DNA of 46,766 bases from a virus (Duplodnaviria > Heunggongvirae > Uroviricota > Caudoviricetes): IMG/VR virus record IMGVR_UViG_2877958089_000004. The stretch is one strand, 5' to 3'. Below are positions 26,905 to 33,677 of this stretch, piece after piece. Numbering within the stretch: the first letter of the stretch is position 1; every line of letters starts with the position of its first letter. The notes beneath the pieces are model-generated. The model was not told the DNA's origin and made no database searches. It saw only the letters and a list, made by a program, of their open reading frames with translations. A program made the position numbers and the translations under genes.

Positions 26905-27393
26905 CTACGCTACATGTTTAATTTTCTCTACACGTTTCCGGTTTTTAAACGCACTATCCAGAACCGGGTAAATCATAAACAACGAGGCATTGAGGATTTC
27001 GTCAACTTCCCGACGACAGGTTGCGAGCGATGGTTTTTGAATGCGCCCGCCGCCCCGGCATAACATCTTGCGAGGTCTTGCGACGCGATGATAGTAAGAT
27101 GCAATGGCGTGCTTGGAAGAACCGTGGGCGTAGTAGCTGAGGAGGATGCCAAAGGCTTTCTTGTCAATGTACATGACGGAATCGACGACCTGAGAAATCA
27201 ACATTCCATCATCATCATTGCACATCGGCCTTGTCATAACTCTTCCCGGCTCTACGCTCTCCATGAACTTCGCTATTACGCTGCTCATGCGCTTTTCAAG
27301 ACGACCTGAATAAACCCATGCTCCCCACAGTTCAAGCCAGCCATTCAGCCAATCGTGCTGCTCTTTGGTGAGGTTTAGTTCTCTTATGCTCAT
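26905..27393 (-). CDS. Putative late-gene antiterminator (Q-like)
   Basis: 162-aa ORF positioned between ninH/rusA and the lysis cassette, followed by a ~530 bp non-coding region before S; called by position, not by recognised motif. Confidence 0.55.
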   Translation of the reverse strand: MSIRELNLTKEQHDWLNGWLELWGAWVYSGRLEKRMSSVIAKFMESVEPGRVMTRPMCNDDDGMLISQVVDSVMYIDKKAFGILLSYYAHGSSKHAIASYYHRVARPRKMLCRGGGRIQKPSLATCRREVDEILNASLFMIYPVLDSAFKNRKRVEKIKHVA

Positions 27394-27578
27394 CGTCTTC
27401 CCCTCTTGCCCTGTTTGACCATCAGGACGCCGTTAACTATTACATGACGCTCGCCTTTGCTGTCTCGGTTGTACTTGAGCACCGTTCCTCTTGCGCAGGA
27501 AAGCATCCTCGCCACTTCGGTCTGATTGCCTCGTGTCTGGATAAGAAGCTCTGGTATCGTTTGAATTGTGGCGTTCAT
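27390..27578 (-). CDS. ninH: NinH-like protein
   Basis: 62 aa; IQTIPELLIQTRGNQTEVARMLSCARGTVLKYNRD resembles lambda NinH. Confidence 0.8.
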   Translation of the reverse strand: MNATIQTIPELLIQTRGNQTEVARMLSCARGTVLKYNRDSKGERHVIVNGVLMVKQGKRGRR

Positions 27579-27937
27579 ACGTTCTCCAGTTCGGTGATTT
27601 TTATTCCAAGCCTTCCGCCTGGTACTTTCACGCCACGAATTACGCGAATGTCATCGAATTGCTCGTCGTCTTCCGCAAATCCGGCGTGGATAAGGGAGTC
27701 GAGTAAACCTTTAAGAATGTTGTCGAGGTCGCGGCGGCGGGAGTCTGGAACGTCTGCGATGACTTTGATACGGAGCCGTGATTTGGTGAAAATATCTAAC
27801 TTGAGTTGGCGGATGATTTGCTGAACGTCTTTTCGGTATTTCTGGCCTTTATCGCTGATGTAGTATTGGCTTCCCCTTCTTCGCCAGTAGGTGTTCAGCG
27901 ACGGCGGGTATGGAAGCACAAACTGATATTCGTTCAT
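27575..27937 (-). CDS. rusA: RusA-family Holliday junction resolvase
   Basis: 120 aa with LPYPPSLNTYW and RRRDLDN motifs characteristic of RusA. Confidence 0.85.
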   Translation of the reverse strand: MNEYQFVLPYPPSLNTYWRRRGSQYYISDKGQKYRKDVQQIIRQLKLDIFTKSRLRIKVIADVPDSRRRDLDNILKGLLDSLIHAGFAEDDEQFDDIRVIRGVKVPGGRLGIKITELENV

Positions 27938-28224
27938 GGCTTAATCTTCCCCTCCTTCAGCAGTATCGCCTGCGTCCTGATCACGCCTTCGAGGTGGTAA
28001 AGTCTGGCGTCTTTGTTGTCGAGATTATGGGTGCGTCGGTCGATCTCCGCGTGGCAGTCACTACAAGCCCATGCACCGATCAGGTCGTCAGGCTTCATTC
28101 CAGTTCCGCAAATTCCAGCCATCCGGTAATGTGCCAGAACTGTAGTTTCAGGATTGCCATTGCATACGCCGTAAATACGTACCTGGCATTCTCTGCCGCG
28201 TGCTTCTTTGCGTAGATTAGCCAT
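27934..28224 (-). CDS. ybcO: YbcO-like protein (DUF1364, putative nuclease)
   Basis: 96 aa; GRECQVRIYGVCNGNPETTVLAH...CSDCHAEIDRRTH resembles DLP12 YbcO. Confidence 0.75.
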   Translation of the reverse strand: MANLRKEARGRECQVRIYGVCNGNPETTVLAHYRMAGICGTGMKPDDLIGAWACSDCHAEIDRRTHNLDNKDARLYHLEGVIRTQAILLKEGKIKP

Positions 28225-28946
28225 TAAGCAGCCTCCCCTGTTACTTTCAGCATTCCGTTATCGAGCAGCTTTCTGGTCAGCCACTGTTGACCACGCCCGG
28301 TGATTTTTGTGGTGAACGATATCTGTATTCCGTGATTTGTGTTGACCGCTGTTTCTTTTACGGTGAAATAGCCGCGATCCATATATTCCTGCATTGGCAC
28401 ATTTCGCCGGGAACCTGAAGCAATAAGGATTTTGTGATCACGCATCCACGCAAACAGTTTGTTTGGACCAATACCGACAACCTTTGCAAAGTTTCCAATC
28501 AAAATTCCGCTGGCCTCGCCAACGCGATCGGCAAACTCAACTTTAGGTGCGGCAATTGCGAGCTGGTTTTCCAGTTGCATTTTCTGCTCAGCAAGGTCAG
28601 CAGCAAGGCGCAACGCTTCCGGTAGCGTTTTGGGGATATTAACCGCAGCTTCTTCAAGCTCTCGCCAGCGGTCAACAAGGCGAGCGGTGAACTCTGGCGA
28701 CAACTGGGCAACAACGACAATACTGTCTCGCTTACCTTGTTCGCCCTCGAAGACGTAATGCTCGTACTGAACATTGAACCCTAAGTTATTGATTCTTTCG
28801 GAAACCTCAATTTGAGGAAGCCGGATAACACCATTTTTAGCCAGCGTTTCGATGGTACGTTTCACATTGTCATGACGCTTACCAACCAACTCAGCGATTT
28901 CAATGCTTGTCATTTTGATGGCATTGCCATTTATTAACTCATTCAT
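28224..28946 (-). CDS. Phage antirepressor-like protein (Rha N-terminal domain + KilAC C-terminal domain)
   Basis: 240 aa; N-terminal Rha-type region and C-terminal KilA-C/ANT-type region; sits in the nin region. Confidence 0.65.
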   Translation of the reverse strand: MNELINGNAIKMTSIEIAELVGKRHDNVKRTIETLAKNGVIRLPQIEVSERINNLGFNVQYEHYVFEGEQGKRDSIVVVAQLSPEFTARLVDRWRELEEAAVNIPKTLPEALRLAADLAEQKMQLENQLAIAAPKVEFADRVGEASGILIGNFAKVVGIGPNKLFAWMRDHKILIASGSRRNVPMQEYMDRGYFTVKETAVNTNHGIQISFTTKITGRGQQWLTRKLLDNGMLKVTGEAA

Positions 28947-29109
28947 CGTCTTCTTCCTCGTACATTGAGCTATTCGGATCGCTCATCAGCTCTGCGCAGC
29001 AATCGGAGCACACGTGAACTTCCAGCATATGCAGCTTCTGACCGCAATTAGCGCACGTTAAAGCCCGCTCGACGCTTTGTTGTTCGTAACTTCGATTTGG
29101 GTCAATCAC
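28939..29109 (-). CDS. ninF: NinF-like small zinc-binding protein
   Basis: 56-aa ORF (GTG start) ending …[44 protein letters not shown], close to lambda NinF; stop overlaps the downstream ATG (ATGAATGA). Confidence 0.6.
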
Positions 29110-29284
29110 CTTGTTTTCCTCGCACGTTCTCTAAGCCACCGGATATCCCACAGGTGAGCCGTGTAGTTGAAGGTTTTTACGTCAGATTCTTTTGGGATTG
29201 GCTTGGGTTTATTTCTGGAGCGTTTCGTTGGAAGGTATTTGCAGTTTTCGCAGATTATGTCGGTGATACTTCGTCGCTGTCGTC

Positions 29285-29815
29285 TCATGCCGCCCTCCTG
29301 GCGCCCTGCCCGATCGCCATCAATGCCGATTTGGATACGGTAGTAAACATCCGTCGAGGACTGATGAACGGTCGCCAAATCAGCAGCATTGAGCCTTTGC
29401 TGTTTCCCTTCTTCTCCAGCCCCGTCGATGGTTCGATAAAATTAATCCGTCCATCAGTGATAATGCGAACTTCGTCGACACTCTCCAGAGCCTTGCTGAA
29501 CCATCCGACTGACATATCCTCTGGCACAAGCATAACTACCGTCTGTCGCTGTTGTATGCTCTGCTCAGCGGCTTTTTCCACCCACGGCCTGATATTGCTG
29601 TACGGTGGGTTATTCCAGATTGCACCGTGGCTTATCCACTCAGAATTGAGTGCGTCGTCGGCCTCAGTTAGCCAGTGAGCGCACAGAGCATTTTTGTCGC
29701 TCGCAGCTGAATCCAGCCAGAATCCAAACTCAATATCCAGCGCATCAAAAAGCCAAAGCGGCGTTTGCCAGCAGTCTCTAACTTCTTTTGGTGTTTCTGA
29801 TTTATGCTTAATCAT
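29285..29815 (-). CDS. dam: Phage orphan DNA N6-adenine methyltransferase (Dam family)
   Basis: 176 aa with catalytic NPPY motif (…[11 protein letters not shown]…) and the N-terminal [12 protein letters not shown] region typical of phage Dam; no adjacent restriction endonuclease gene. Confidence 0.8.
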
Positions 29816-30340
29816 TCAACCCTCGCATATTGTCCGTGATATTTGTTGATAGCCTCACTGGCAACCAAACCAGCAAGCTCAAGATCTTCATAGAACCCAA
29901 AATGCAACCGGCCAAAATCTGTGCGCACTTGAACGGCCCATTTATTTTTTTTGCTTGTTCCATAAAACATTTTTTATTCCAGAACGGCTATTGCACTTAG
30001 TTTTCTGATTTCGGCTGTTTGCTATCCGGCTTGCCTCCCTAAGATTTTTTGGGGAATTGTCCAGCCTGTTTCCGTTAATATGGTCAATATTTTTCAATGG
30101 CATTCTTTTGTTGTGCAGCGCAAAAACAACTACGTGAACAAACATCTGAATGCCTGCAAAACACACCTGTCTATACCCAGATCCATTTATCGATGTTTTA
30201 ATTTCATCTCCGGCCCGGTGGCTGTGGTTGGGGTGTTTTAGCGAGTCCTTTTTGTACCTGACTGTATCTCCGTCTAAATACAGATAATCCTCAATAAGCC
30301 GATACCTATCTGACGCTGGCGTATTTGATTTGATAGTCAT
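29812..30340 (-). pseudogene. HNH (HNH_3) + AP2-domain endonuclease gene, frameshifted at a homopolymer
   Basis: HNH region (…HVVVFALHNKRMPLKNIDHINGNRLDNSPKNL…) ends in a stop inside an 8-nt T run (29945-29952); the AP2-like region (WAVQVRTDFGRLHFGFYEDLELAGLVASEAINKYHG) continues in the +1 frame to a stop overlapping the dam start. Confidence 0.7.
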
Positions 30341-30783
30341 GCAGCCTTCCCTTTTCGTTGTGACCATTCATACTCTCGCCGGGAGTCATCACTCCACCGC
30401 ACGTTGCGCTCTGAGCCGAACCAGAACATGATTTCGATAAGCTCAGTCATGTTGGCCTTTCGCATTTTGCTGGTACGCACGCCAAGCATGACAACGCCAC
30501 CGTCGATACCAGGCGCACTTCTTTGCTCCAGTTTTTTTGTCTTAAGCCACAGGGCAGTGAACAGATCTTTCCAGTCCTCCGGCGCAAGTCTCTTTCCATG
30601 CCAAAGCACCTGACGTGATACGTCCTGCAATAACGCCCACATAAGGCGGTTTTGAGGATTACTCCGCTTGGGTTCTTTAACGTGGACTTCGTGGGGTGAT
30701 TTGTCGTCGATGGGAAGTGAGAGTATTGCGTCTATGGCGTTGTTTCTGATTTCTTCGTTGCGAAGCATGTATATTTGCTTCAT
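30337..30783 (-). CDS. ninB: NinB/Orf-family recombination mediator
   Basis: 148 aa; …NPQNRLMWALLQDVSRQVLWHGKRLAPEDWKDLFTA… parallels lambda NinB. Confidence 0.85.
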   Translation of the reverse strand: MKQIYMLRNEEIRNNAIDAILSLPIDDKSPHEVHVKEPKRSNPQNRLMWALLQDVSRQVLWHGKRLAPEDWKDLFTALWLKTKKLEQRSAPGIDGGVVMLGVRTSKMRKANMTELIEIMFWFGSERNVRWSDDSRREYEWSQRKGKAA

Positions 30784-30785
30784 CG

Positions 30786-31028
30786 TTACTCCTTCACTTT
30801 GACTCCAGCGGCGCTTAGCTCTTTTCTCATGTCATCTCTGCGGTGGTAAGTCCCGCCAGAAGCGTCTATTCCATGAGATGGCCATTTAATTTCGATAGCT
30901 GCGCGAGACTTAACCCATGACTGCCAAGCAATCATCTTGATGGCCTGAACGTGAAGTTCTTCGCTGTTGTTAATAGACTCGAACTCTTCACCAAACCACT
31001 CCAAAAACTGCTTTCTTGATTCGTCCAT
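30786..31028 (-). CDS. Hypothetical protein
   Basis: 80-aa ORF tightly packed upstream of ninB. Confidence 0.45.
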   Translation of the reverse strand: MDESRKQFLEWFGEEFESINNSEELHVQAIKMIAWQSWVKSRAAIEIKWPSHGIDASGGTYHRRDDMRKELSAAGVKVKE

Positions 31029-31039
31029 ATCAATCCCCG

Positions 31040-31240
31040 TTATGACAGGTTAATTTTCACCCAGCCCTTCCCACGCACATTTGCAACAAGCCCTTTCTTT
31101 CTCAGGTATTGCATACGGCGATCGATGGTTTCGATATACATTCCATTGCTCCGCCATTTAAGCCAGATATCAAAAACAGGTGTTGGTCTTTCACTCAGCA
31201 TTGAAAGAATGTTTTGATCTAATTTTTCGTACTTGCTCAC
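31040..31240 (-). CDS. Hypothetical small protein
   Basis: 66-aa ORF whose start overlaps the stop of the upstream ORF. Confidence 0.45.
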   Translation of the reverse strand: MSKYEKLDQNILSMLSERPTPVFDIWLKWRSNGMYIETIDRRMQYLRKKGLVANVRGKGWVKINLS

Positions 31241-31578
31241 AAATACCCTCTCTCACTTAATCGCGCCCACGCTTCGTTAAACTCATCTCTGGTTGCGCCG
31301 GATTTTCTTTCTTCAAACATCATGCATTCGCTGATGTCTCCCCATGACTTTGGTCGCTTTTCAGCGAACAGATCATCCCATTCGAATACCCAGCGTCCTG
31401 ATTTTCGGTAGTGGTAAATGGTCAGCCATGTTGTGCTGTTCGCTGGATACCCATAGAGAACTTCGACTTTTTGATCACGGTCTTTATGCTTTTTCAGCAG
31501 GATAAAGCCAGCAACCAGCGAAGCTCCGGCAAGAATGATGATTGGAATTTGCCAGTCAGCCACACTTCCCTCTCCCAC
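31237..31578 (-). CDS. Hypothetical protein with N-terminal transmembrane segment
   Basis: 113 aa; hydrophobic segment IPIIILAGASLVAGFILL followed by a soluble domain. Confidence 0.45.
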   Translation of the reverse strand: MGEGSVADWQIPIIILAGASLVAGFILLKKHKDRDQKVEVLYGYPANSTTWLTIYHYRKSGRWVFEWDDLFAEKRPKSWGDISECMMFEERKSGATRDEFNEAWARLSERGYL

Positions 31579-31610
31579 AAATAAAAAGGCCTGCGATTAC
31601 CAGCAGGCCT

Positions 31611-32222
31611 TTATCTGTTTTTAACACGCTTTCGAGTCCTTTTAGATTTTTCCTTAAGATATTCCGCAAGTTTATCCTCATCATTATTAAATTGAGATAA
31701 AAGCTCATGCTCGCAATTAAGTGCTTTACTCGCATAAGTTCCATATAGTTTCTTTCTTGCTAGTGCTGCTATGAATGCTGCATCTTCTTTGCTATCGAAA
31801 TACCCTAACGATATTGTCTTATTTTTATAACCAACATAAGACTTCCACCTGCCAGTTGGCTTATACCAAGACACTCCAATTGCACCGGATGTGTTTAATC
31901 TATTCCCTACAATGTTTCTTGCATTCTGCTCTTCTGTTGCCAGTCTTAGATTTGAAATCCTATTGTCAAGTCTGTTCCCATTTACATGATCAATAAACTT
32001 AGGAGGCCATTTTTTGTATACATAGAACCAAGCAAGTCTATGCGCATAATACAAAACATTATTTATGCTAATGCATATATAACCACCACTAACACCTCCA
32101 GCAATACTACCTTTTACTCTTACTACTGAATTTGTTTTTAGCCATTTAAATATTCCTGTTTCTGAGTCATATGATAATGTTGACAGAAGCTCATCGTGAT
32201 CAATTAGTTTTTTTATTCGCAT
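31611..32222 (-). CDS. HNH (HNH_3) + AP2-domain homing endonuclease-like protein
   Basis: 203 aa; HNH region (…YAHRLAWFYVYKKWPPKFIDHVNGNRLDNRISNLRLAT…) followed by AP2-like region (GVSWYKPTGRWKSYVGYKNKTISLGYFDSKEDAAFIAALARKKLYG); locally AT-rich. Confidence 0.75.
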   Translation of the reverse strand: MRIKKLIDHDELLSTLSYDSETGIFKWLKTNSVVRVKGSIAGGVSGGYICISINNVLYYAHRLAWFYVYKKWPPKFIDHVNGNRLDNRISNLRLATEEQNARNIVGNRLNTSGAIGVSWYKPTGRWKSYVGYKNKTISLGYFDSKEDAAFIAALARKKLYGTYASKALNCEHELLSQFNNDEDKLAEYLKEKSKRTRKRVKNR

Positions 32223-32300
32223 AAAGAATATAATTAATAATATATACAGTAAGAACCATTAGTAACGATAACCCTGCTATTAGCTCAGTGACGTAGATGG

Positions 32301-33677
32301 TCATACGTCCGCCCCTTGTGCATATCGTCTGCCACGCGCAGCAGGTGCATTTGATGCTGTGCAAATCTGTCTGGCTTCATCCTGGTCACATGCAACAAAG
32401 TGTCCGTTGCAGAACCGCTGGTAAACCGTACCAAGCGAGCCAAAACGGTTTTTCGTCACGATGATTTCAGCAAATGGCGCGGCGCTACTGTTCTCGTCAT
32501 ATACCGCTTCCCGATAGAGCATGATGATTGAGTCTGCGTCCTGTTCAATGCTTCCTGAATCACGCAAATCTGCGTTTGTCGGGCGTTTGTTTGGTCGCTT
32601 CTCAACATCGCGCGAAAGCTGACTTAGGGAGATAACAGGCGTTTTCAGGTCTTTCGCCATCGCCTTCAGGCTTCCGGAGATGTGAGCAATTGCTAGGTCG
32701 TTGCGGTCTGCTTTCGGCTTCTCAATCAGGCCAAGATAATCCGCCATGATGAGTGACAGGTTTGGATTTTCCTGTTTGTGCCGTTCTGCGATTGAGCGTA
32801 TTTCTTCGACCGATAACCGCGAGGCATCGACCACCCATACATCCAAATCTGCAAGCTGACTCATGCCGTTAGCAACGCGCGCCCAGCCTTCGTCATCCAT
32901 CGATGCAGGATTTCGCAGTACGCTAACCGACATCCTCCCGGCGTTGGCAATGCTTCGCTCTGCAATCTGCAATGCGCTCATTTCCATTGAGAAAATCAAT
33001 ACCCCGCGCCGGACGTCAGAACCAGGAATAACGCGGCTTGCAACGCCTTCGGCAATCTTCAGCGCCAGTTCGGTTTTCCCCATACCAGGACGAGCGGCGA
33101 TAATCACCAGGTCTTCCGCGTTCATCCCTCCGGTGATGGCATCAAGTTCTTCGATTCCGGTCTTCAGGGTATCGGACTCTTCTCCGTTCCTCAGACGCCT
33201 GTCAAGCGTGTCAGTGTAGTCAGTGATGATTTCCCCTAACCGTACCGGTTTAACCTCGTCACGGGGCTTTCTGATGGCTGAGAGACGCTTTACAAGCTCA
33301 TCCATCGCCTGACTCGATGCGTCGATGGTTCCGCTCTGAATTGGTTCACGCATTTCATCCATGATTTCCAGCACCAGACGGCGGTGATAGTTATCCGCGA
33401 CCATTCCGGCATATCCCTTCAGGTTTGCGGCGCTCGGGCAGTTTTTGCTGGTCATCAGGATTGACGTGAAATGCTCCTCTCCGCACGCCTCGGCAACCAT
33501 CATCGCGTCGATTAGTTTTCTGTTTCGCGCCTGCTTGCGGATAACCTCGAAGGCTTTCCGGTAGAGCGGAATTGAAAACGCTTCCGGCTCAAGCGTTGCC
33601 AGAACGTCACTGGCAGTTGGTGTTAATCCACCAATCAGCAGGCCACCGATAACGCTCGCTTCGATATCCTGTCTCAT
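32301..33677 (-). CDS. Replicative DNA helicase (DnaB family; P22 gene 12-like)
   Basis: 458 aa; Walker A ([17 protein letters not shown]) and DnaB-type C-terminal region; follows the O-like initiator. Confidence 0.9.

What the first reader, a model, noticed from the sequence alone, without database searches (positions are those of the whole stretch)
29812..30340. HNH-AP2 endonuclease gene broken by a single-base homopolymer indel
The HNH part ends in a stop inside an 8-nt T run (29945-29952) and the AP2-like DNA-binding part continues in the +1 frame; a run of 7 or 10 would give one continuous ~175-aa ORF. This is either a sequencing error, a real inactivating mutation, or a slippery-run expression switch.
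Basis: seen in the sequence. Interest (0 to 1): 0.45.

Follow-up and report, generated by a model that had tools for sequence, protein, structure and literature searches.

The report
Frameshifted homing endonuclease gene in prophage
A selfish phage nuclease gene in an E. coli prophage has really gained one extra A in a run of seven, cutting off its DNA-binding domain; this is a heritable inactivating mutation seen in many independent assemblies, not a sequencing error or a programmed frameshift, and it is ordinary decay of a mobile gene.

Summary
On the minus strand, a 132-aa HNH ORF (30340->29942) stops at TAA directly after an A8 run (T8 at 29945-29952). The homologous C-terminal domain continues in the +1 frame to 29812, and A7 or A10 would restore a 175/176-aa ORF.

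It is not a sequencing error. The exact 132-aa product is called on at least 24 contigs from independent NCBI and Illumina-derived Logan assemblies. Two assemblies are 100% identical to the window over 6.4 kb.

It is not a conserved recoding site:
- The in-frame A7 allele is about 50 times commoner (1362 vs 26 index blocks).
- All 57 loci in three unbiased collections are A7 (51) or A6 (6).
- Homologs at 31-75% identity are single ORFs that cannot encode the run.
- No stimulatory RNA structure or Rfam element is present.
- Published E. coli reporters show no deletion slippage on poly(A) up to A8.

The gene behaves as a free-standing HNH/AP2-fold homing endonuclease cassette between ninB and a Dam-like methylase. 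It is optional, and nearly invariant (pi <=0.009) beside a highly divergent ninB (pi about 0.3-0.4). Alleles at every stage of decay exist. A8 occurs on at least 6 gene haplotypes, so the run is a recurrent indel hotspot. Low interest; already-known kind.

The parts
29942..30340 (-). 5' part of the broken gene: a 132-codon ORF plus TAA stop. It encodes the N-terminal region and the complete HNH (His-Me finger) nuclease core, plus only the first strand of the C-terminal DNA-binding domain.
   Evidence: ORF list and translation. Pfam HNH_3 PF13392 at residues 67-110, 43.3 bits against a cut-off of 24.8. The same start is annotated in RefSeq for the intact allele WP_052167194.1. The upstream in-frame ATG at 30367 (141 aa) lies inside ninB and is called in only one assembly.
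29945..29952 (-). Homopolymer run: A8 in the sense strand (T8 on plus). It is the site of the +1 insertion relative to the in-frame A7 allele.
   Evidence: Relatives carry A7 (intact) or A6.
29942..29944 (-). Premature TAA stop created by the frameshift, directly after the run.
29812..29970 (-). A 52-codon ORF in the +1 frame. Its part 3' of the run (29812-29941) is the orphaned remainder of the AP2-fold domain (strands 2-3 and the helix).
   Evidence: The alignment with single-ORF homologs runs across the break. In the AF2 model of P0001 (98% identical to the in-silico A7 product), the strands are 127-130, 135-142 and 145-152 and the helix is 155-173, so the break falls between strand 1 and strand 2.
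29970..29975 (-). Second, shorter run (A6 in sense) about 20 nt upstream of the main run. It is A5 in two relatives that also carry A6 at the main run.
   Evidence: L003 and L037 carry A5 + A6.
30337..30340 (-). ATGA overlap: the ninB stop and the HNH start. This is the left edge of the cassette.
   Evidence: The diversity drop begins here.
29812..29815 (-). ATGA overlap: the HNH stop and the methylase start. The last ~23 nt of the HNH ORF double as the methylase leader with a GAGGG Shine-Dalgarno.
   Evidence: and the alignment with empty junctions.
30337..30783 (-). Flanking gene ninB (recombination protein NinB).
   Evidence: Annotation of identical or near-identical loci.
29285..29815 (-). 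Flanking gene for a phage Dam-like N-6-adenine methyltransferase.
   Evidence: PF05869 Dam.

Best explanation
This is a real, heritable loss-of-function allele of a free-standing HNH homing-endonuclease gene in the nin region of a lambdoid E. coli prophage. The intact gene (175 aa, A7 run) encodes an N-terminal HNH nuclease core and a C-terminal AP2-fold DNA-binding domain. Replication slippage added one A (A7 -> A8). Translation then stops after Lys132, between the first and second strands of the DNA-binding domain. The product keeps the catalytic core but has lost the module expected to give target recognition, so homing activity is most likely abolished. The run is an indel hotspot that has been hit repeatedly and in both directions (A8 and A6 alleles). 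This is the degeneration phase of the usual homing-endonuclease cycle of invasion, decay and loss. Shown here: the frameshift, its reality and recurrence, the domain architecture, the cassette behaviour, and the lack of conservation of the run. Inferred: slippage as the cause, loss of activity of the truncated protein, and homing as the mode of spread.
For: (1) The allele is real. The exact 132-aa product occurs on at least 24 contigs (26 index blocks), including Logan assemblies of five separate read sets and the complete genome CP028309.1. All 17 A8 sequences in hand, counting the window, carry A8. L006 and L008 are 100% identical to the window over 6.4 kb. (2) It is a minority allele derived from an in-frame gene. 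The exact 175-aa A7 product is in 1362 blocks / 663 contigs. Unbiased censuses give 31 A7 / 3 A6 / 0 A8 in RefSeq complete E. coli (10 of the 34 loci checked at sequence level, 7 A7 and 3 A6; the rest from match-span arithmetic), 13/2/0 in IMG/VR and 7/1/0 in metagenomes. The nearest A7 relative (E. coli GF131) differs from the window by 8 mismatches plus this single gap in 5562 nt. (3) The run is a hotspot. A8 is found on at least 6 gene haplotypes and about 12 local contexts, with A7 counterparts on the same backgrounds. (4) The gene is a known kind of nuclease. HNH_3 scores above its cut-off. Homologs carry PF00847 AP2. The AF2 model has pLDDT 89.5 with a three-strand-plus-helix C-terminal domain. 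Foldseek puts I-HmuI on top (prob 0.99) and plant AP2 domains at prob 1.00. (5) It behaves as a mobile cassette. One search matched 1550 E. coli genomes, but only 32 cover >=80% of the query and only 34 listed records carry the gene, so nearly all matches lack it; the two gene-less junctions fetched (L032, L033) have methylase and ninB adjacent. Diversity is pi <=0.009 across HNH against about 0.3-0.4 in ninB and 0.014-0.034 in the methylase beyond its first ~50 nt. (6) Other decay states exist: IS100 insertion, an A5+A6 double deletion, a 120-aa truncation and a 14-codon deletion remnant. (7) There is a direct precedent. ICP1 gp115/gp116 is an HNH/AP2 pair split by a frameshift and read as an inactivated homing endonuclease gene (PMC10448857).
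Against: No experiment shows that the 132-aa product is inactive. All 17 A8 alleles still keep the 52-codon tail ORF open. However, they are so young (0-4 substitutions per gene) that this has no power either way. The count of independent A8 origins is uncertain. The local tree is mosaic, and intragenic recombination between co-resident lambdoid prophages could move one A8 onto other haplotypes. Low-level full-length protein from rare slippage cannot be excluded. Homing itself (site-specific cleavage of the empty junction) is inferred, not shown.
Confidence: 0.85

Rival explanations
1. Sequencing or assembly error: the true run is A7 and the gene is intact.
For: Homopolymers are classic error sites. 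No A8 was found among 34 RefSeq complete E. coli loci, 15 IMG/VR loci or 8 metagenome loci.
Against: The identical A8 allele is present in at least 24 contigs from independent projects and read sets, including short-read-derived assemblies. Twelve of the places share the window's own gene context. The allele also sits in different prophage backgrounds. An 8-nt run is well within short-read consensus accuracy (established knowledge).
Confidence: 0.02
2. Recoding. The A8 allele still makes full-length endonuclease, either by transcriptional slippage (loss of one A in the mRNA) or by +1 ribosomal frameshifting on AAA-AAA-UAA. The run would then throttle expression of a potentially toxic nuclease.
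For: A/T runs can support RNA polymerase slippage, and 8A is productive in some bacteria (PMC1088944). A stop codon directly after a Lys-codon run is a plausible pause site (inference). The tail ORF is intact in all 17 A8 alleles.
Against: The site is not conserved. About 98% of alleles are in-frame A7. Homologs at 31-75% identity are single ORFs whose residues cannot encode the run. A8 alleles are tip variants 0-4 substitutions from A7 alleles. In E. coli reporters, host RNA polymerase gave no detectable deletion-type rescue on poly(A) up to A8 (PMC6260861), and selection against runs typically starts at 9 nt. There is no downstream structure (z = -0.36) and no Rfam frameshift element. I saw no strong Shine-Dalgarno-like stimulator upstream of the run when reading the sequence. 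A -1 slip on A-AAA-AAA leads into the wrong frame.
Confidence: 0.05
3. DNA-level phase variation. The run is a contingency locus that switches the endonuclease ON (A7) and OFF (A6/A8) reversibly, with adaptive value for the prophage or its host.
For: Run length is polymorphic (6, 7, 8) among near-identical alleles. A8 appears on several haplotypes and backgrounds, implying repeated events.
Against: Seven to eight A:T pairs is, from my own knowledge, shorter than typical high-rate phase-variation tracts. The run is not conserved in homologs. The A6 alleles examined carry second lesions (IS100, or a second frameshift), so they look like dead ends rather than switches. Frequencies of about 2% A8 and about 10% A6 fit neutral decay of a dispensable selfish gene.
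Confidence: 0.06
4. Functional split gene. The HNH-only 132-aa protein, possibly together with the separately translated 52-aa fragment, retains a useful activity such as non-specific nicking or a defence or packaging role.
For: The catalytic core is intact. The 52-codon ORF starts with ATG and is called by gene finders in several assemblies.
Against: The break lies inside the three-stranded sheet of the DNA-binding domain, so neither piece holds a complete domain. Reading the sequence upstream of ATG 29970, I see only a weak ribosome-binding site. The allele is a rare, young variant.
Confidence: 0.02

Closest known systems
HNH-AP2 homing endonucleases (Magnani et al. 2004, as cited in PMC10448857 and PMC5714182; His-Me finger 'group 2' HNH_3 proteins, structural archetype I-HmuI, PDB 1u3e)
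   Same: An N-terminal HNH_3 nuclease core plus a C-terminal AP2-fold DNA-binding domain. The gene is small and free-standing in a phage genome and is optional at a fixed intergenic site. I-HmuI is the best structural match, and plant AP2 domains match the tail.
   Different: The tail is too divergent for the Pfam AP2 model. No cleavage site or activity is known for this gene. The window's copy is frameshifted.
ICP1 phage gp115/gp116 (IPA-HNH homing endonuclease gene split by a frameshift; PMC10448857)
   Same: An HNH part and an AP2 part lie in adjacent ORFs that fuse into the expected architecture. The authors interpreted the pair as an inactivated homing endonuclease gene. The same paper shows nuclease genes sitting at boundaries of genetic exchange, as seen here at the ninB/HNH edge.
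   Different: The host and phage are different (Vibrio phage ICP1) and the HNH subfamily is divergent. Here the cause can be pinned to a single extra A in a homopolymer, and in-frame sister alleles are available.
Homing-endonuclease life cycle of invasion, degeneration and loss (recalled from the literature, Goddard & Burt 1999; not re-read here)
   Same: Empty sites, intact copies, frameshifted copies, IS-disrupted copies and a deletion remnant all coexist at one site across E. coli prophages.
   Different: That model was described for intron-borne genes in yeast mitochondria. Here the gene is free-standing in temperate phages, where recombination between co-resident prophages also moves alleles.
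Programmed transcriptional slippage sites (Thermus dnaX A9, Shigella mxiE T9, IS elements with A9/A8; PMC1088944)
   Same: An A/T homopolymer sits at the junction of two ORFs whose fusion gives the full-length protein.
   Different: The run here is not conserved and is shorter than the usual threshold. It needs a deletion slip on poly(A), and in-frame alleles dominate.

Membership tests
HNH_3 / His-Me finger endonuclease (PF13392) | Significant match to the family profile above the curated cut-off | tested here: met
   42.6-43.3 bits against a cut-off of 24.8, residues 67-110, full profile 2-46/46.
HNH_3 / His-Me finger endonuclease (PF13392) | Conserved catalytic and metal-binding residues of the beta-beta-alpha-Me motif | tested here: met
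   H71, D88, H89, N97, N101 and N110 (P0001 numbering) are invariant across 16 homologs and present in the window's 132-aa product. The top structural match is I-HmuI.
AP2 DNA-binding domain (PF00847) | Match to the Pfam AP2 profile | tested here: not met
   No AP2 hit at E<=0.1 for the fused protein or for the tail. The in-window paralog scores 28.7 bits, below the cut-off of 33.3. Ten of the 55 homologs listed carry a precomputed PF00847 call; those with near-full query coverage include P0011 (42% identity, 91% coverage), P0020, P0021 and P0029.
AP2 DNA-binding domain (PF00847) | Three-stranded antiparallel sheet packed on one helix | tested here: met
   AF2 model with mean pLDDT 89.5: strands 127-130, 135-142 and 145-152, helix 155-173. 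Foldseek matches TEM1 AP2 (7et5, rmsd 1.8 over 51, prob 1.00) and WRI1 (7wq5, prob 1.00), although E-values are above 0.001.
Homing endonuclease gene (free-standing) | Presence/absence polymorphism at one precise genomic site | tested here: met
   One search matched 1550 E. coli genomes; only 32 cover >=80% of the query and only 34 listed records carry the gene, so nearly all lack it. The two gene-less junctions fetched and aligned (L032, L033) have ninB and the methylase adjacent.
Homing endonuclease gene (free-standing) | Element much less diverged than its flanks (recent horizontal spread) | tested here: met
   pi <=0.009 in HNH, about 0.3-0.4 in ninB, and 0.014-0.034 in the methylase beyond its first ~50 nt. 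The gene differs by 0-4 in 388 nt across four ninB types.
Homing endonuclease gene (free-standing) | Site-specific cleavage of the empty allele and gene conversion | not testable with these tools
   Needs in vitro cleavage and co-infection assays.
Programmed frameshift / transcriptional slippage site | Shift site and two-ORF arrangement conserved among homologs | tested here: not met
   A7 in-frame alleles are about 50 times commoner. All distant homologs are single ORFs, and their residues at this position (e.g. QKGKW, KSKAW, LNKW) cannot encode the run.
Programmed frameshift / transcriptional slippage site | Stimulatory element, or run length sufficient for the host polymerase | tested here: not met
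   The downstream fold has z = -0.36 and there is no Rfam hit. The literature gives no deletion slippage on poly(A) up to A8 for E. coli RNA polymerase and a typical threshold of 9 nt.
Phase-variable contingency locus | Tract-length polymorphism among closely related strains | tested here: met
   A6, A7 and A8 are found in near-identical genes.
Phase-variable contingency locus | High-frequency reversible switching within a clone | not testable with these tools
   Needs read-level heterogeneity or fluctuation assays. A tract of 7-8 A:T is short for this, from my own knowledge.

The most novel reading that the evidence does not exclude
The A7/A8 (and A6) run could be a functional stochastic switch for a prophage-borne homing endonuclease. 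Lysogens would toggle the nuclease off, avoiding cleavage of co-resident lambdoid prophages that carry the empty ninB-methylase site. They would toggle it back on by reversion, or leak full-length enzyme by rare slippage, which would explain why A8 recurs on many backgrounds with an intact tail ORF.
Probability: 0.07. Interest if true: 0.5.

Novelty: already known. Interest (0 to 1): 0.15.

Why it matters
Practically, it settles an annotation question. The two ORFs at 29812-30340 should be annotated as one frameshifted pseudogene of an HNH/AP2-type homing endonuclease, and the extra base should not be 'corrected' as an error. Biologically, it is a tidy but unsurprising illustration of a selfish nuclease gene decaying after spreading through lambdoid prophages. 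The short homopolymer acts as the weakest point and is hit repeatedly. The locus could serve as a small natural system for the homing-endonuclease life cycle in temperate phages, because empty, intact, frameshifted, IS-disrupted and deleted states are all available in public genomes. It does not open a new question.

Tried and rejected
1. Sequencing error. Rejected by exact-protein look-ups and by locus comparison.

2. Conserved recoding. Rejected by allele frequencies, by the homolog alignment, and by the absence of an RNA structure or Rfam hit.

3. INPHARED phage collection, blastn 'distant' mode with the whole gene: no match. The gene is seen only in prophages, IMG/VR contigs and metagenomes.

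4. GTDB species-representative genomes, pattern scan: no match.

5. Looking up NZ_CP028309.1 in the E. coli collection: not held. The source organism of the window is therefore inferred as E. coli only from NCBI protein names and identical contigs.

6. A6, A9 and A10 products on the window's haplotype: absent from the 15-billion-protein collection.

7. Single versus multiple origin of A8. The Fitch count is 13 run-length changes (all states: A6, A7, A8) on a 1.6-kb neighbour-joining tree. I do not take this at face value, because the flanks are mosaic and intragenic recombination is possible. Only 'more than one origin' is claimed. It rests mainly on L016, whose distinguishing substitutions start 13 nt after the run, and on A7/A8 pairs on several backgrounds.

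8. Selection on the tail in A8 alleles: no power, because divergence is too low.

9. An ungapped mismatch count gave inflated numbers for some loci because of indels. It was used only for run lengths.

Full report
**Observation**

The feature lies on the minus strand. The plus strand carries exactly eight T at 29945-29952. In sense orientation the ORF from ATG 30340 reads ...SGIKNVLWNKQKK and ends at a TAA (29944-29942) that directly follows the A8 run. The +1 frame continues ...[44 protein letters not shown] to the TGA at 29812-29814. In-silico runs of 7 or 10 give continuous ORFs of 175 or 176 aa, and 6, 9 or 11 do not. The run is the only 8-mer homopolymer in the window, against 5.95 +/- 3.0 expected from shuffles. 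Its existence is therefore not remarkable in itself. What matters is that homology to single-ORF relatives crosses it.

**What the gene is**

- The 5' part matches Pfam HNH_3 well above its cut-off (43 bits vs 24.8).
- Pfam AP2 is not detected in the tail at E<=0.1.
- Ten of the 55 homologs listed carry precomputed PF00847 (AP2) plus PF13392 calls. Four of them (P0011, P0020, P0021, P0029) align over 91-98% of the query at 36-42% identity.
- The 16-sequence alignment shows the tail motif SGIKNVxWxK...KWxVxI...GxFxDLELAxLVAxEARxKYHGQFAR conserved through the break.
- An AlphaFold2 model of P0001, which is 98% identical to the in-silico A7 product, has mean pLDDT 89.5. It shows an HNH core followed by three strands (127-130, 135-142, 145-152) and a helix (155-173).
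- Foldseek against the PDB puts the HNH homing endonuclease I-HmuI first (prob 0.99). It matches the tail to the plant AP2 domains of TEM1 and WRINKLED1 (prob 1.00, rmsd 1.8-3.1). All E-values are above 0.001.
- The frameshift falls between strand 1 and strand 2 of that domain. The 132-aa product therefore keeps the nuclease core and loses the DNA-binding module.
- HNH + AP2 is a described class of homing endonucleases in phages, cyanobacteria and protists (PMC10448857 and PMC5714182, citing Magnani 2004 and Wessler 2005).

**Genomic context**

The window here is the nin region of a lambdoid prophage. The gene order is DnaB-type helicase, an intact 203-aa HNH_3/AP2 paralog (31611-32222, minus strand), three small genes, ninB, this gene, a Dam-like methylase, ninE, ninF, an antirepressor, ybcO, rusA, ninH and Q. 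Locus L008 is 100% identical to window 26942-33340.

The gene is joined to both neighbours by ATGA overlaps (30337-30340 and 29812-29815).

It is optional. One search matched 1550 of 5426 complete E. coli genomes, but only 32 cover at least 80% of the query and only 34 listed records carry the gene. The two gene-less junctions I fetched (L032, L033) have the methylase and ninB adjacent. The junction alignment shows two things:
- The last ~23 nt of the ORF are the methylase leader, with its GAGGG Shine-Dalgarno.
- One 'empty' site (L032) holds a 14-codon remnant that looks like a deletion between CTATCAA repeats at the two gene ends.

Across 30 HNH-bearing sequences, nucleotide diversity is about 0.3-0.4 in ninB (0.56 in the outermost bin). 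It collapses to <=0.009 through the HNH gene and the first 50 nt of the methylase, then returns to 0.014-0.034. This is the signature of a recently spreading mobile cassette at a boundary of genetic exchange.

**Is the extra base real?**

Yes.
- The exact 132-aa product is on record in 26 index blocks. Twenty-four contigs were read, and ten places were fetched in several prophage contexts. They include NCBI drafts, three Logan assemblies of public read sets and the complete genome CP028309.1.
- A second 132-aa variant (P0065) is on six more contigs, two of them Logan assemblies.
- The 141-aa start variant is on one contig.
- All 17 A8 sequences in hand, counting the window, carry A8 at the DNA level.
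- L006 and L008 are 100% identical to the window over 6.4 kb, and 11 further places share that context.

**Is it the normal state of the gene?**

No.
- The exact in-frame 175-aa product is in 1362 index blocks / 663 contigs, about 50 times more than the A8 product.
- Three unbiased samples contain no A8 at all:

| Collection | Loci | A7 | A6 | A8 |
|---|---|---|---|---|
| RefSeq complete E. coli | 34 | 31 | 3 | 0 |
| IMG/VR viral contigs | 15 | 13 | 2 | 0 |
| Metagenome contigs | 8 | 7 | 1 | 0 |

- In the RefSeq set, 10 of the 34 loci were checked at sequence level (7 A7, 3 A6). The rest are inferred from match-span arithmetic.
- The nearest A7 relative, E. coli GF131, differs from the window by 8 mismatches and this one gap in 5562 nt.
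- Homologs at 31-75% identity are single ORFs of 159-233 aa. Their residues at this position cannot encode an A run. The run is therefore a lineage-specific accident of Lys/Asn codons, not a conserved signal.

**Recurrence**

A8 is found on at least six gene haplotypes. Two of them also occur with A7. It sits next to at least four ninB types, and A7 partners exist on the same backgrounds. A parsimony count on the local tree gives 13 run-length changes across all states. That number is inflated by mosaicism and possible intragenic recombination. More than one origin is still likely, because L016's distinguishing substitutions begin 13 nt after the run.

The A6 alleles fall into at least two lineages, and both carry a second lesion:
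- an IS100 insertion (L004, L005; L046 and L055 are grouped with them only by an identical mismatch profile, and the insertion was not checked there);
- a second one-base deletion in the A6 run at 29970-29975 (L003, L037).

A 120-aa truncation (L047) and the deletion remnant (L032) complete a decay series.

**Recoding and switch hypotheses**

- The needed event is +1 at the ribosome, or loss of one A in the mRNA. A -1 slip on A-AAA-AAA enters the wrong frame.
- The 95 nt downstream fold no better than shuffles (z = -0.36). Rfam finds nothing in 29300-30900.
- In E. coli GFP reporters, host RNA polymerase showed no detectable activity on runs shorter than eight A. It gave no deletion-type rescue on the poly(A) runs tested, against 10% on T8 (PMC6260861).
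- Genome statistics place the usual slippage threshold at nine (PMC1088944).
- Together with the non-conservation of the site, this leaves programmed recoding improbable. Trace full-length product cannot be excluded.
- Reversible DNA-level switching is possible in principle, because an A8 run reverts more readily than random sequence. Nothing indicates selection for it.

**Comparison with known systems, and verdict**

The closest precedent is phage ICP1 gp115/gp116. This is an HNH ORF followed by an AP2 ORF that fuse into the expected architecture, and the authors read it as a homing endonuclease gene inactivated by a frameshift (PMC10448857). The present case is the same phenomenon in an E. 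coli lambdoid prophage, with the causal base identified and in-frame sister alleles at hand.

It is a real, recurrent, most likely inactivating +1 insertion in a degenerating selfish gene. It is already known in kind, and the truncated protein is already deposited under NCBI accessions. Interest is low.

Noticed in passing
window 31611-32222 (-): A second, intact HNH_3 + AP2-like endonuclease gene (203 aa) lies 1.3 kb upstream in the same nin region, just after the DnaB-type helicase gene. It is only about 28% identical to the broken gene. Other loci carry up to three such HNH genes at different nin-region junctions (e.g. L011, L019).
   Followed up: partly
window 29812-30783; alignment of 30 sequences: There is a sharp trough in nucleotide diversity. 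ninB has pi of about 0.3-0.4. The HNH gene and the first ~50 nt of the methylase have pi <=0.009. The rest of the methylase has 0.014-0.034. The HNH cassette marks a boundary between a hypervariable and a conserved module.
   Followed up: yes
L032:714-753 (E. coli E2); repeats at window ~30330-30337 and ~29846-29853: One 'empty' ninB-methylase junction contains ATGACTATCAA|CAAATATCACGG...TGA. This is a 14-codon remnant consistent with deletion of the whole HNH gene between 7-bp CTATCAA direct repeats near its two ends.
   Followed up: partly
window 29970-29975 (T6 on +, A6 in sense): A second short run lies about 20 nt upstream of the main one. It is A5 in L003 and L037, which also carry A6 at the main run. 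That makes two independent one-base deletions in one allele lineage.
   Followed up: partly
whole window: Homopolymers of 8 or more are depleted: 1 observed against 5.95 +/- 3.0 expected from dinucleotide-preserving shuffles. The single survivor is the mutant run in the broken gene.
   Followed up: no
window 30337-30340 and 29812-29815: ATGA stop/start overlaps join ninB to HNH and HNH to the methylase. In the A8 allele HNH translation ends 127 nt before the methylase start, so any translational coupling to the methylase would be lost. The methylase keeps its own GAGGG Shine-Dalgarno.
   Followed up: no
window 29812-30340 vs the INPHARED phage collection: The gene has no blastn match, even in 'distant' mode, in 50,697 deposited phage genomes. 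It does occur in 15 IMG/VR contigs and in hundreds of prophage-bearing E. coli assemblies, so it appears confined to uncultured or integrated temperate phages.
   Followed up: no
L004, L005 (E. coli 503440 / 503829): In these two strains an IS21-family IS100kyp element has been inserted into the 5' part of the same HNH gene, which also carries A6. L046 and L055 show the same A6 run and the same mismatch profile and probably belong to this lineage, but the insertion was not checked there.
   Followed up: partly
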